A stretch of 64,000 bases of DNA, taken from Eledone cirrhosa (taxonomy: Eukaryota). Positions 49,738 through 55,902 of the stretch are shown one piece after another (position 1 is the first letter of the stretch; each line of letters begins with the position of its first letter). The notes under the pieces were generated by a model, which worked only from the letters and a program-made list of their open reading frames with translations, did not search any database and was not told the DNA's origin. Position numbers and translations under genes: made by a program. Where the stretch lies: the NCBI GenBank assembly GCA_964016885.1, contig OZ024753.1, positions 13,268,001 through 13,332,000 on the forward strand. The letters run 5' to 3'.

Positions 49738-49980
49738 AAATAATATATAAGAACAAAAGATGGTTAAAAGAGTTCCATGTATTTTATTATGCGCATTTCA
49801 AAAACAAATATCATCATGCAATAATATTTGTGTTTTCATCAGATAAAATAGGAAGACATGATATGAAGGTTAAAAAACACTTGTGGATAGTGCAGTTTTA
49901 AATCAACATATCAATTTGTTCTTATATATTATGTATACTCCAGTCCTACATCTGTAGAGTGCTTCTTATCCGATATCTGC
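49738..49980 (-). mobile_element. Hammerhead cassette copy 1 (one ribozyme unit) with 18-bp inverted termini
   Basis: ATAATATATAAGAACAAA ... TTTGTTCTTATATATTAT. Repeated at 52624 and 55521. Confidence 0.75.
49780..49850 (-). ncRNA. Type I hammerhead ribozyme
   Basis: Minus strand: TATTTTAT-CTGATGA-AAACACAAATAT...ATATTTGTTTTT-GAA-ATGCGCAT-A-ATAAAATA. Perfect 8-bp stem I, palindromic stem III. Confidence 0.85.
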
Positions 49981-51378
49981 ATATGTATATATATACATAT
50001 ACATACATATATATACATATATATATATACATACATATATATACATATATATATATACATATATATATATATATATATACATATATATATATATACATAT
50101 ATATATATACATACATATATATATATATACATACATATATATACATACATATATATATATATACATACATATATATACATACACATATATATATATACAT
50201 ACATATATATACATACATATATATACATACATATATATATATACATATATATATATACATACATATATATACATACATATATATACATACATATATATAG
50301 ATATATATATATATACATACATATATATACATATATATATATATACATACATATATATATACATATATCTATATACATACATATATATACATATATATAT
50401 ATACATACATATACATACATATATATATATACATACATATATATACATACATATATATACATATATATATATACATACATATATATACATATATATATAT
50501 ACATACATATATATACATACATATATATACATACATATATATACATACATATATATACATACATATATATATACATACATATATATATATATATACATAC
50601 ATATATATATATATACATACATATATATATATATACATACATATATATATATATACATACATATATATATACATATATATATATATATATATACATACAT
50701 ACATATATATATACATACATATATATATATATATAAATACATACATATATATATACATACATATATATATATATACATACATATATATATATATACATAC
50801 ATATATATATATATACATACATATATATATATATACATACATATATACATACATATATATATACATACATATATATATATATACATACATATATATACAT
50901 ACATATATATACATATATATATATATACATACATATATATACATATATATATATATACATACATATATATACATATATATATATATACATACATATATAT
51001 ACATATATATATATATACATACATATATATACATATATATATATATACATACATATATATACATATATATATATATACATACATATATATACATATATAT
51101 ATATACATATATATATATACATATATATACATACATATATATACATATATATATATACATACATATATATACATACATACATATATATACATATATATAT
51201 ACATACATATATATACATACATATATATACATATATATATACATACATATATATATATACATATATATACATATATATATACATACATATATATATACAT
51301 ACATATATATATATATATACATACATACATATATATACATACATACATATATATATACATACATATATATATATATAC

Positions 51379-51988
51379 ATGGTGGCTGCCAACTCGTTTT
51401 CGAGTACGGCCACTACTTTATATCCATGTAGGAGAACCCCTACCGATGCGCTGAACGAGTGTGACTTTTCAATCCAGCCAGCCACTTGAAAACTCTGGTA
51501 CAGACACTACACTTGTGACAATTACTGACACATAGTGCTGGGCCCATGGTACCATGTGATGACAAGTGCAGAGAGATCTCCAGATATAAAGCAATGCCTG
51601 TGCCGTGAAGCTTTTATAGTGAGCAAAAGCACTGCACAAAGCCAGTCCCACTCTCTTAACCAAGATGATATTTACCAAAAAGAAGAACAAGTCAACATCA
51701 TTGGATACCATCAGGGTTGCAGGTGTTATATCAGAGTTTTCCTTCTCCTAGAATTCTGCCTTGACAAAGGCTAAGGGGTCATCTCTCCCGGTGATTTTGG
51801 ATGGCCATTGACTCTTAAGAGCTCTTTTGCCCTTTGACAGGTTTTGTTTTTAATCCTGCAGGATGTCCAAAGTCACCCTCCTCACCAAGAAACCTTGGTG
51901 GGGTTGCCAGTTTAGTCGCCAACGACCCGACCATGAGACAGGTTGTACTGGGGTACATGTTACCAGTAGCACCAACTGGTGACCTGAC
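51379..51988 (-). mobile_element. Bipartite non-autonomous RTE derivative (about 610 bp: RTE 5' UTR joined to RTE 3' end)
   Basis: 51660-51988 aligns with the RTE 5' UTR at 30020-30357. 51379-51520 is the zinc-finger remnant plus 3' hairpin. No APE or RT. Confidence 0.85.
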
Positions 51989-52623
51989 ATAATATATACA
52001 TACATATATATATACATACATATATATATACATACATATATATATATATATATATACATACATATATATACACATACATATATATATATATATATATACA
52101 TACATATATATACACATACATATATATATATATATATATACATACATATATATACACATACATATATATATATACATACATATATATACATATATATATA
52201 CATACATACATATATATATATATATACATACATATATATATACATACATATATATACATATATATACATATATATATATACATATATATACATATATATA
52301 TATATACATACATATATATACATATACATACATGTATATACATATATATATATATACATACATATATATACATATATATATATATACATATATATATATA
52401 TACATATATATATATATATACATATATATACATATATATATATATACATACATATATATACATATATATATATATACATATATATATATATACATATATA
52501 TACATTACATATATATATATATATATACATACATATATATACATATATATATATATACATACATATATATACATATATATATATATATATATACACATAT
52601 ATATATATAATATATACATACAT

Positions 52624-53006
52624 AAATAATATATAAGAACAAAAGATGGTTAAAAGAGTTCCATGTATTTTATTATGCGCATTTCAAAACAAATATCATC
52701 ATGCAATGATATTTGTGTTTTCATCAGATAGAATAGGAAGACATGATATGAAGGTTAAAAGAGTTCCATGTATTTTATTATGCGCATTTCAAAAACAAAT
52801 ATCATCATGCAATAATATTTGTGTTTTCATCAGATAGAATAGGAAGACATGATATGAAGGTTAAAAAACACTTGTGGATAGTGCAGTTTTAAATCAACAT
52901 ATCAATTTGTTCTTATATATTATGTATACTCCAGTCCTACAATCTGTAGAGTGCTTCTTATCGGATATCTGTATTGCTTTATTGTACTACAATAAAACTC
53001 ACCTCC
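52624..53006 (-). mobile_element. Hammerhead cassette copy 2 with two tandem ribozyme units (52666-52735, 52771-52841)
   Basis: Internal tandem duplication of about 105 bp. Each unit has CTGATGA...GAAATGCGCATA on the minus strand. Confidence 0.8.
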
Positions 53007-55520
53007 TACATACATATATATACATATATATATATATACATACATATATACACATATATATATACATATATATATATATATATATATACATATATACACA
53101 TATATATATACATATATATATATATATATACATATATATACATATATACACATATATATATACATATATATATATACATATATACACATATATATATATA
53201 TATACATATATATACATATATACATACATATATATACATATACATACATATATATACATATATATATATATACATACATATATTATACATACATATATAT
53301 ACATATATATATACATACATATATATACATATATATATACATACATATATATACATATATATATATACATACATATATATACATACATATATATACATAT
53401 ATATATATACATACATATATATACATATATATATACATATATATATATATACATACATATATATACATACATATATACATATATATATATACATACATAT
53501 ATATACATATATATATATACATATATATATATACATATATATATATACATACATATATATACATATATATATATACATACATATATATACATATATATAT
53601 ATACATACATATATATACATACATACATATATATACATATATATATATACATATATATACATACATATATATATACATACATATATATACATATATATAT
53701 ATACATATATATACATACATATATATACATACATATATATACATACATACATATATATACATACATATATATACATACATATATATACATACATACATAT
53801 ATATACATACATATATATACATACATATATATACATACATATATATACATATATATATACATATATATACATACATATATATACATACATATATATACAT
53901 ATATATACATACATATATATACATACATATATATACATATATATACATACATATATATACATATATATATATATACATACATATATATACATATATATAT
54001 ATATACATACATATATATATACATACATATATATATATATACATATATATATACATACATATATATATATATACATATATATATACATACATATATATAT
54101 ATATACATATATATATACATACATATATATATATATACATATATATATACATACATATATATATACATACATATATATATACATACATATATATATACAT
54201 ACATATATATATATATATATACATACATATAATACATATATATATATATACATACATATATATACATATATATACATACATATATATACATATATATATA
54301 TATATACATACATATATATATACATACATATATATAACATATATATATATACATACATATACATATATATATATATATACATATACATATACATATATAC
54401 ATATATATATATACATATATATATATATACATATACATATATATATATACATATATATATATACATATATATATATATACATATACATATATATATATAC
54501 ATACATATATATATACATATATATATATATACATATATATATATACATATATATATATACATATATATATATACATATATATATATACATATATATATAT
54601 ACATATATATATATACATATATATATATACATATATATATATACATATATATATATATACATATATATATATATATATATACATATATATATATATACAT
54701 ATATATATATACATATATATATATACATATATATATATATACATATATATATATACATATATATATATACATATATATATATATACATATATATATATAT
54801 ACATATATATATATATACATATATATATATACATATATATATATATACATATATATATATATATACATATATATATATATATACATATATATATATATAC
54901 ATATATATATATATACATATATATATACATATATATATATATACATATATATATATATATACATATATACATATATATATATATACATATATATATATAC
55001 ATATATATATATACATATATATATACATATATATATATACATATATATATATATACATATATATACATATATATATATATATATATACATACATATATAT
55101 ACATATATATATATATATACATACATATATATACATATATATACATACATATATATACATATATATATATATATATACATACATATATATACATATATAT
55201 ATATATATATACATACATATATATACATATATATATATACATACATATATATACATATATATATATATACATACATATATATACATACATATATATACAT
55301 ATATATATATATACATACATATATATACATATATATATACATATATATATATATATACATATATATATATATACATATATATATATATACATATATATAC
55401 ATTACATATATATATATATATATATACATACATATATATACATATATATATATACATACATATATATACATATATATATATATATATATACACATATATA
55501 TATATAATATATACATACAT

Positions 55521-55902
55521 AAATAATATATAAGAACAAAAGATGGTTAAAAGAGTTCCATGTATTTTATTATGCGCATTTCAAAAACAAATATCATCAT
55601 ACAATGATATTGTGTTTTCATCAGATAGAATAGGAAGACATGATATGAAGGTTAAAAGAGTTCCATGTATTTTATTATGCGCATTTCAAAAACAAATATC
55701 ATCATGCAATAATATTTGTGTTTTCATCAGATAGAATAGGAAGACATGATATGAAGGTTAAAAAACACTTGTGGATAGTGCAGTTTTAAATCAACATATC
55801 AATTTGTTCTATATATTATGTATACTCCAGTCCTACAATCTGTAGAGTGCTTCTTATCCGATATCTGTATTGCTTTATTGTACTACAATAAAACTCACCT
55901 CC
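55521..55902 (-). mobile_element. Hammerhead cassette copy 3 with two tandem ribozyme units (55563-55632, 55668-55738)
   Basis: Near-identical to 52624-53006. Confidence 0.8.

What the first reader, a model, noticed from the sequence alone, without database searches (positions are those of the whole stretch)
49738..55902. Tandem ~105-bp hammerhead units in an inverted-terminus cassette, repeated three times
Seen: five minus-strand hammerheads (49780, 52666, 52771, 55563, 55668) with an 8-bp stem I, long AU-rich stem II and palindromic stem III ATGCGCAT. Copies 2 and 3 hold head-to-tail pairs 105 bp apart. The cassette has 18-bp inverted ends. Established: palindromic stem III lets adjacent minimal hammerheads fold as an active dimer. 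Inference: a pre-built dimeric ribozyme releasing a ~105-nt RNA that is mostly ribozyme, a very small retrozyme-like unit.
Basis: partly seen in the sequence, partly recalled or inferred. Interest (0 to 1): 0.8.

Follow-up and report, generated by a model that had tools for sequence, protein, structure and literature searches.

The report
Penelope-type retroelement end with duplicated hammerhead
Five hammerhead-ribozyme motifs sit in three neighbouring copies of what is likely the broken end of a Penelope-like jumping gene lodged in a TA repeat, and the paired motifs 105 bases apart likely arose by a local DNA slip, so this is probably an ordinary member of a known kind and not a new minimal self-copying RNA.

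Summary
The five minus-strand type I hammerhead motifs are real, and family variation spares the core except at variable position 7. The "inverted-terminus cassette" is misread. The right 18-bp arm lies 84 nt inside the element. Contigs from public runs show that 52906-53007 is an inverted copy of the element's own 3' end, joined head-to-head to a 5'-truncated sense copy at a junction that differs between contigs. This layout, in a TA microsatellite, is what Penelope-like elements (PLEs) leave. The three copies share one junction and flank, so they come from one insertion. The 105-nt unit lies between two native 8-nt direct repeats. All four tandem motifs carry a stem I C-A mismatch that copy 1 and nearly all family contigs lack, so the pair likely arose locally after insertion. 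No tandem joint was listed in four runs. Folding favours a double hammerhead over two single ones, but the mismatch weakens it. Cleavage, expression and a linked PLE reading frame were not shown. Tandem hammerhead units of 51-972 bp derived from PLE ends are in print. Verdict: new member of a known kind.

The parts
49740..49911 (-). Copy 1, sense part: 5'-truncated element end with one hammerhead
49780..49850 (-). Hammerhead 1 (type I, perfect 8-bp stem I, family allele); predicted cut between 49788 and 49787
49915..49982 (+). Copy 1, inverted copy of the element's 3' end, shortened (no AATAAA left)
51380..51992 (.). Unrelated ~610-bp LINE-like fragment between copies 1 and 2; further copies at 59510, 60191, 21517
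   Evidence: 93-95% between copies; 73% to 29938-30339
52626..52902 (-). Copy 2, sense part: 5'-truncated at 52902, two hammerhead units, ends in the 18-nt stretch shared with the inverted copy
52626..52643 (.). Left arm of the 18-bp inverted repeat (3' end of the sense copy); equivalents 49740-49757 and 55523-55540
52666..52735 (-). Hammerhead 2B (stem I with C-A mismatch); predicted cut between 52674 and 52673
52674..52778 (-). 105-nt RNA that two cuts would release (predicted); 29% G+C
52753..52760 (-). 8-nt direct repeat (TTTTAACC on the minus strand) at the unit borders, also at 52648-52655 and 52859-52866; copy 1 has it at 49762-49769 and 49868-49875
52771..52841 (-). Hammerhead 2A; core C3 at 52833 to H17 at 52779; mismatch base at 52837
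52903..52905 (.). Head-to-head junction (3 letters), identical in all three copies
52906..53007 (+). Copy 2, inverted copy of the element's own 3' end: 18-nt shared arm, 84-nt tail, AATAAA at 52991-52996, abutting the TA/TACA repeat
   Evidence: tables 5 and 7
55523..55799 (-). Copy 3, sense part with two hammerhead units
55563..55632 (-). Hammerhead 3B; predicted cut between 55571 and 55570
55668..55738 (-). Hammerhead 3A; predicted cut between 55676 and 55675
55803..55903 (+). Copy 3, inverted copy of the 3' end with AATAAA at 55887-55892
44370..59510 (.). TA/TACA microsatellite array that holds all three copies
43117..44352 (-). Context, not shown to be linked: 5'-truncated PLE reading frame (reverse transcriptase end, C-x4-C-x2-C linker, GIY-YIG-type nuclease) at the edge of the same array

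Best explanation
This is likely the 3' end (pseudo-LTR region) of a Penelope-like retroelement that carries a type I hammerhead motif, likely inserted once into a TA microsatellite as a 5'-truncated copy joined head-to-head to an inverted copy of its own 3' end, and likely multiplied afterwards at DNA level. Steps: (1) SHOWN: in family contigs the inverted piece 52906-53007 continues directly from the sequence that ends the sense copy, and it ends at TA repeats in other copies too. (2) INFERRED from published PLE anatomy: a PLE reverse transcriptase and GIY-YIG nuclease made the insertion by target-primed reverse transcription; whether the family is the end of a coding PLE or a non-coding passenger is open. 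(3) SHOWN: three copies share one junction and 72 nt of flank, so they descend from one insertion. (4) INFERRED: after copy 1 split off, one base changed in stem I, a slip or unequal crossover between the two native 8-nt repeats doubled the 105-nt segment, and the whole cassette was doubled again into copies 2 and 3. (5) PREDICTED: in the mobile family the hammerhead cuts the element's RNA only when two motifs pair through the ATGCGCAT palindrome; the local pair could do so in cis, weakly, and would release 105 nt if transcribed, as a by-product and not as a replicon.
For: Inverted 3' copy: loose ends before 52906 read as the sense copy's 3' end in 37 X1 contigs and 2 X5 contigs, and before 52916 in 2 X1 and 1 X5 contigs, where the match must run past the 18-nt arm into the tail (table 7). 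Variable head-to-head junctions: 15 of 18 joints are shown, all skips; 14 of 15 lead from the sense part (52773-52905) to varied points of the inverted part (52906-52991), the other is an internal deletion; none of the 30 listed pieces bridges the window's own junction (tables 5, 8). The family extends further 5' than the window copy (shared loose end behind 52902 in X5 and X7). TA runs follow the 3' end in X4 and X5. AATAAA lies 11 nt before that end. Published anatomy matches: inverted 5'-truncated copy, tail at one end only, TA bias (PMC8557442 passages), mostly head-to-head inversions and solo pseudo-LTRs (PMC3846280 passages), palindromic short helix III in PLE ends (PMC4209133). A coding PLE relative, L043, shows the same layout at full size: 800-aa frame, direct repeat 820-1595 = 3597-4375, inverted copy 34-819, hammerheads at 1578+ and 51-. 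An unrelated family in this window repeats it: inverted 14863-15049 next to tandem 15051-16286. Selection on the fold: of 15 listed variant positions within the hammerhead span, the only core one is position 7; 9 of 10 in stem II and the 8-bp stem I keep pairing on the minus strand, 4 of 10 on the plus strand. Local origin of the pair: the window letter at 52837 makes up at most 0.017% of X1 depth and 0.62% of X4 depth, is absent in X5 and X7, and copy 1 has the family letter. Two copy-1 molecules fold as a double hammerhead in the minimum-energy structure; none of the four tandem units forms stem I there.
Against: No reading frame was linked to this family: loose ends show at most 30 letters, the neighbouring PLE at 43117-44352 has no hammerhead and no similarity to the cassette, and the upstream motif was found in 0 of 75 records held. 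The tail is 84 nt, longer than the 30-40 nt described. The 105-nt unit lacks the element's 3' end, so it is not a standard PLE partial tandem. Only 4 of the 58 PLE-bearing loci's scan hits (in 3 loci) were hammerheads. Two further variants in the distal 4-bp extension of stem I break pairs; counted in, the tally is 9 of 12, and variants are linked in subfamilies, so the binomial tail of 0.029 overstates the case. Both B units carry a stem II letter that also occurs as a family variant (52814), which would fit copying from two different templates. Contigs show presence, not absence, so tandem copies elsewhere are not excluded. The runs may be of other species than the window's.
Confidence: 0.78

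Rival explanations
1. The 105-nt unit is a minimal non-LTR retrozyme: tandem copies are transcribed, cut as a double hammerhead, circularised and reinserted by a PLE enzyme.
For: Two complete cores 105 nt apart; double fold favoured over two single folds by about 17 kcal/mol; meets the two-unit definition of bioRxiv 10.64898/2026.07.22.740005; units of 51-972 bp are reported there.
Against: Unit embedded in native flanks between pre-existing 8-nt repeats; shared rare stem I mismatch; no go-back joint among 15 shown joints; the double fold is still 8.5-10.5 kcal/mol above the free ensemble (the model ignores tertiary contacts); A-U instead of the usual G-C at the base of stem II; 1 of 9 tested Xenopus dimers cleaved in that preprint.
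Confidence: 0.09
2. Same PLE-type insertion, but the pair was made during reverse transcription (template slip or switch at the 8-nt repeat), and copy 1 later lost one unit.
For: PLE enzymes make complex tandem and inverted products (PMC8557442, PMC3846280 passages); both B units carry a stem II letter seen as a family variant.
Against: Copy 1 has the family letter at the stem I position where all four tandem units have the rare letter, which needs a back-mutation or a later conversion between units.
Confidence: 0.08
3. A small DNA transposon (MITE-like cassette with terminal inverted repeats) that captured hammerheads.
For: An 18-bp inverted repeat encloses the hammerheads; TA flanks.
Against: The right arm is 84 nt from the end; in family contigs that arm continues in direct order from the hammerhead side, and junctions vary.
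Confidence: 0.02
4. Copies 2 and 3, or the unit pair, are assembly artefacts in a long microsatellite.
For: Copies 2 and 3 differ at only 5 places, 3 of them single-base indels; the array is 15 kb of simple repeat.
Against: Units A and B differ consistently in both copies; copy 1 differs at diagnostic sites; the spacers differ (the LINE-like fragment lies only between copies 1 and 2).
Confidence: 0.03

Closest known systems
Hammerhead ribozymes in the pseudo-LTRs of Penelope-like elements (Cervera and de la Pena 2014, PMC4209133; text parts 1-2 of 4 read)
   Same: Type I core, long helix II, short palindromic helix III that points to dimer cleavage, mostly found as dispersed single motifs from truncated elements.
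   Different: Helix II is longer (15 pairs vs 6-8 in their examples), begins with A-U instead of G-C, helix I is 8 bp plus a bulged extension; no reading frame linked here.
EN+ Penelope-like elements, insertion anatomy (Craig et al. 2021, PMC8557442; Arkhipova et al. 2013, PMC3846280; passages read)
   Same: 5' truncation, inverted 5'-truncated copy head-to-head, tail at one end only, insertion in TA microsatellites.
   Different: Very short remnant (about 390 bp); tail 84 nt rather than 30-40 nt; the tandem unit lacks the 3' end and so is not a pseudo-LTR partial tandem.
Animal non-LTR retrozymes (Cervera and de la Pena 2020, PMC7229834, passages and Discussion; Li, Clavereau and Pollet 2026, bioRxiv 10.64898/2026.07.22.740005, parts 1-3 of 5, supplements not seen)
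   Same: Head-to-tail units each with a type I hammerhead, low G+C, no protein; the 2026 preprint proposes exactly this birth by local tandem amplification of a PLE end.
   Different: 105 nt is below the 170-400 nt of the expressed circles in the 2020 paper though inside the 51-972 bp of the preprint; only a dimer, seen only at this locus; no expression evidence.

Membership tests
Type I hammerhead ribozyme | Conserved core CUGANGA / GAAA / UH | tested here: met
   5 of 5 motifs, 0 of 100 shuffles; only position 7 varies among listed family variants; one X7 contig has a 5-nt core deletion
Type I hammerhead ribozyme | Helices I, II and III around the core | tested here: met
   Stem I 7-8 of 8, stem II 15 pairs, stem III 2 bp as monomer or 8 bp as dimer; 9 of 10 variants keep pairs, 9 of 12 with the distal extension
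Type I hammerhead ribozyme | Match to a curated Rfam hammerhead model | tested here: not met
Type I hammerhead ribozyme | Self-cleavage | not testable with these tools
   Folding only
Penelope-like element (EN+) | Single frame with PLE reverse transcriptase and GIY-YIG nuclease joined to this end | tested here: inconclusive
   None in the cassette; loose ends limited to 30 letters; neighbour at 43117-44352 not linked
Penelope-like element (EN+) | Hammerhead with short palindromic helix III near the 3' end | tested here: met
Penelope-like element (EN+) | Variable 5' truncation with an inverted copy head-to-head | tested here: met
   14 of 15 shown joints; same layout in L043
Penelope-like element (EN+) | Tail present at one end only | tested here: met
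   Inverted copy has 84 nt that the sense copy lacks; longer than the 30-40 nt in PMC8557442
Penelope-like element (EN+) | Partial tandem of copies that each keep the 3' end (pseudo-LTR) | tested here: not met
   Unit A runs into unit B without the 3' end; not expected of every truncated insertion
Animal non-LTR retrozyme | At least two consecutive tandem units with complete type I hammerhead | tested here: met
   Copies 2 and 3
Animal non-LTR retrozyme | Tandem units dispersed at other loci as a family | tested here: inconclusive
   No go-back joint listed in 4 runs of contigs, which cannot show absence; no genome held
Animal non-LTR retrozyme | Abundant linear and circular monomer RNA | not testable with these tools
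   No run on record as RNA was listed
MITE / TIR DNA transposon | Inverted repeats at both termini | tested here: not met
   Right arm 84 nt inside; junctions vary

The most novel reading that the evidence does not exclude
The locus catches the birth of a retrozyme in one 6-kb stretch: a single PLE hammerhead (copy 1) became a cis dimer through a slip at a built-in 8-nt repeat (copies 2, 3), the dimer cuts, and a 105-nt almost ribozyme-only circle is made in cells; in addition, family inversion junctions at 52773-52785 would be genomic traces of the hammerhead or its palindrome setting the 5' end of PLE templates in vivo.
Probability: 0.1. Interest if true: 0.55.

Novelty: new member of a known kind. 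Interest (0 to 1): 0.24.

Why it matters
As read here it is an ordinary piece of an abundant animal retroelement family. Its value is as a compact worked example for the proposal that retrozymes are born by local tandem duplication of PLE ends: ancestor and product lie side by side, the slip sequence is visible, and a single natural base difference in stem I gives a ready-made monomer-versus-dimer cleavage test. It would matter more if the 105-nt RNA proved to accumulate as a circle, or if junctions proved enriched at the cleavage site, since the role of PLE hammerheads in cells lacks in vivo evidence according to PMC4209133.

Tried and rejected
No whole genome is held, so no copy survey. Rfam: nothing at gathering score; E-value scans gave microsatellite-driven miRNA matches (150 of 211 shown) and weak snoRNA-type matches, all rejected. 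The repeat finder was swamped by the microsatellite; TRF did not list the 105-nt pair separately. Metagenome pattern scan: 16 of 16 hits lacked the helices and were rejected as chance. Viral contigs: 0 matches to a family pattern, no PLE relatives. First prokaryote-genome scan with the single protein found nothing; the alignment-based scan gave 58 loci, none with a blastn match to the cassette at E 0.1. Single-motif folds are not more stable than shuffles (z -0.24 to -0.97); the whole cassette is (z -2.4), largely through the inverted repeat. Summed contig depth was not used as a copy number. A short AAACTCAC match between the cassette's 3' end and the flank of the neighbouring PLE was dismissed as chance by rough estimate. 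Pfam did not recognise the neighbouring PLE frame; its identity rests on homologues and its clade was not tested by a tree. A constrained two-molecule fold crashed and was not obtained. Lunse et al. (PMC5785218) is not held; only its title and the summary in PMC6765202 were seen. Not in print, as far as searched: a microhomology origin for a retrozyme dimer (one search listed 1 paper, on R2) and junctions at PLE hammerhead cleavage sites (listing only); these two searches are narrow.
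Full report
Setting. The window is eukaryotic-looking repeat DNA: satellites at both ends, long TA/TACA arrays, LINE fragments and a PLE fragment. No whole genome is held. The finding lies in a 15-kb TA/TACA array (44370-59510).

Observation. Five minus-strand type I hammerhead cores are present and none arises in 100 shuffles. Stem III is the palindrome ATGCGCAT, the triplet is AUA, stem II has 15 pairs, and the predicted cuts in copies 2 and 3 are 105 nt apart. Sixteen core-only matches from metagenomes lack the helices, so the helices here are not a by-product of the pattern.

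The family. Fourteen of 18 listed public runs hold part of the stretch. I laid four (X1, X4, X5, X7; contigs only; three organism codes, three studies) on 52753-53010; 3304, 283, 23 and 5 contigs were laid. Among 15 listed variant positions in the hammerhead span, the only core change is at position 7, the free position; 9 of 10 changes in stem II and the 8-bp stem I keep pairing on the minus strand against 4 of 10 on the plus strand. Two changes in the distal stem I extension break pairs (9 of 12 with them), two are at unpaired sites, and variants are linked, so this is moderate support. It still says the motif is maintained as minus-strand RNA in the mobile family.

Anatomy. Loose ends before 52906 (37 X1 contigs, 2 X5 contigs) and before 52916 read as the end of the sense copy (table 7). 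So in the family the tail 52906-53007 follows the hammerhead in direct order, ends 11 nt after AATAAA and abuts TA repeats (X4, X5). In the window it is inverted and joined head-to-head to a sense copy cut off at 52902; X5 and X7 share a further upstream continuation. Of 18 joints 15 are shown, all skips; 14 join the sense part to different points of the inverted part, and table 5c names three more skips that are probably the three not shown. None of the 30 listed pieces bridges the window's junction. The '18-bp inverted ends' are simply the stretch that the sense copy and the inverted copy both contain. This matches PLE insertions as described: inverted 5'-truncated copy, tail at one end, TA bias (PMC8557442, passages), mostly head-to-head (PMC3846280, passages; also PMC8969392, passages). 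A coding relative of the window's own PLE fragment, L043, shows the same layout with hammerheads in the direct and the inverted repeat, and an unrelated family at 14863-16286 repeats it in this window. What is missing is a physical link to a reading frame: the PLE fragment at 43117-44352 (60% identical to full-length reverse transcriptase plus GIY-YIG proteins) shows no hammerhead and no similarity to the cassette.

History of the locus. All three copies share the junction, 72 nt of left flank and a letter at 52943 that is nearly absent from X1 and X4: one insertion, then local copying about 2.9 kb apart. The single-unit copy already has an 8-nt direct repeat on both sides of the hammerhead, and the duplicated segment runs exactly between them. 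The mismatch letter at 52837 is in all four tandem units, not in copy 1, and makes up at most 0.017% of X1 depth and 0.62% of X4 depth. The simplest order is: single unit, base change, slip duplication, cassette duplication. Against this, both B units carry a stem II letter that is also a family variant, which leaves room for a template switch during insertion. No go-back joint was listed, but contigs cannot show absence.

How it likely works. Short palindromic helix III motifs of PLEs are reported to cut weakly and as dimers (PMC4209133, parts 1-2 of 4; PMC6765202, passages). Here two copy-1 molecules take the double-hammerhead topology as their minimum-energy fold, while the four tandem units form the palindrome duplex but not stem I. 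In cis, the double fold beats two single folds by about 17 kcal/mol but stays 8.5-10.5 kcal/mol above the free ensemble; the single fold of copy 1 is 5.8 above. These models ignore tertiary contacts. I infer that the family motif processes element RNA as a dimer, and that the local pair would cut weakly and release 105 nt if transcribed. No cleavage or expression was tested.

Comparison. It works like a PLE pseudo-LTR hammerhead and has PLE insertion anatomy; formal membership lacks the linked reading frame. Copies 2 and 3 meet the two-unit working definition of a non-LTR retrozyme in bioRxiv 10.64898/2026.07.22.740005 (parts 1-3 of 5; its supplements were not seen and may list similar short families). 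That preprint reports units of 51-972 bp, proposes birth by local tandem amplification of PLE ends, and found cleavage in 1 of 9 dimers. Expressed animal retrozyme circles are 170-400 nt (PMC7229834, passages and Discussion). The 105-nt size is therefore small but not outside what is reported.

Loose threads. Ten of the 14 head-to-head joints start at 52896-52905; part of this reflects where the reference's sense part ends, but some have few or no letters between. Three start at 52773-52785 and one X7 contig switches strand at 52781, around the predicted cut at 52779/52778; two lie downstream and two upstream of it, depths are low, and 52773 is also the edge of detection, so this is a weak hint only.

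Verdict. Observation partly confirmed, interpretation partly supported. New member of a known kind; interest 0.24. Most novel reading not excluded: a retrozyme caught at birth that yields a 105-nt circle, probability 0.1, interest 0.55.

Noticed in passing
window 21742-22150, motif at 21888 (+): A sixth, more canonical type I hammerhead (7-bp stem I, G-C at the base of stem II, palindrome ACTAGT) in a single island within a TA array, next to a LINE-like fragment.
   Followed up: partly
window 14863-16286, motifs at 15472 and 15943 (+): A 471-bp tandem (2.6 copies) with a degenerate hammerhead-like motif in two units and a 187-bp inverted piece head-to-head beside it; looks like a conventional PLE-type partial tandem or retrozyme array, and by eye resembles the 21742-22150 island upstream of the motif.
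   Followed up: partly
window 43117-44352 (-): 5'-truncated PLE reading frame of 412 aa without stops, with a C-x4-C-x2-C linker before the nuclease as described for the Neptune and Nematis clades; starts in the microsatellite; no hammerhead found downstream.
   Followed up: partly
window 51380-51992, 59510-60128, 60191-60512, 21517-21741: A ~610-bp LINE-like fragment with the same left end in four places, each inside TA/TACA repeats, 93-95% alike, 73% like 29938-30339.
   Followed up: no
window 23356-29819 (-): Two nested or adjacent LINE copies with endonuclease and reverse transcriptase frames broken by frameshifts.
   Followed up: no
window 13104-13919 (+): 272-aa hydrophobic open frame that by eye resembles a multi-pass chemoreceptor; no Pfam match; the label is from recall.
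   Followed up: no
window 52896-52905 and 52773-52785: Family head-to-head junctions gather at the 5' edge of this copy and, more weakly, around the predicted cleavage site and palindrome.
   Followed up: partly
window 52674-52778 (-): The 105-nt unit has no AG dinucleotide on the hammerhead strand; meaning unknown.
   Followed up: no
L017-L074: 58 loci in prokaryote-labelled assemblies encode PLE-like proteins, likely host DNA carried along; L043 is a near-complete PLE with direct and inverted repeats and hammerheads.
   Followed up: partly
table 7, runs X4, X5, X7: Loose ends inside stem II point to subfamilies with a different, G-C-richer stem II on the same core and stem III.
   Followed up: no
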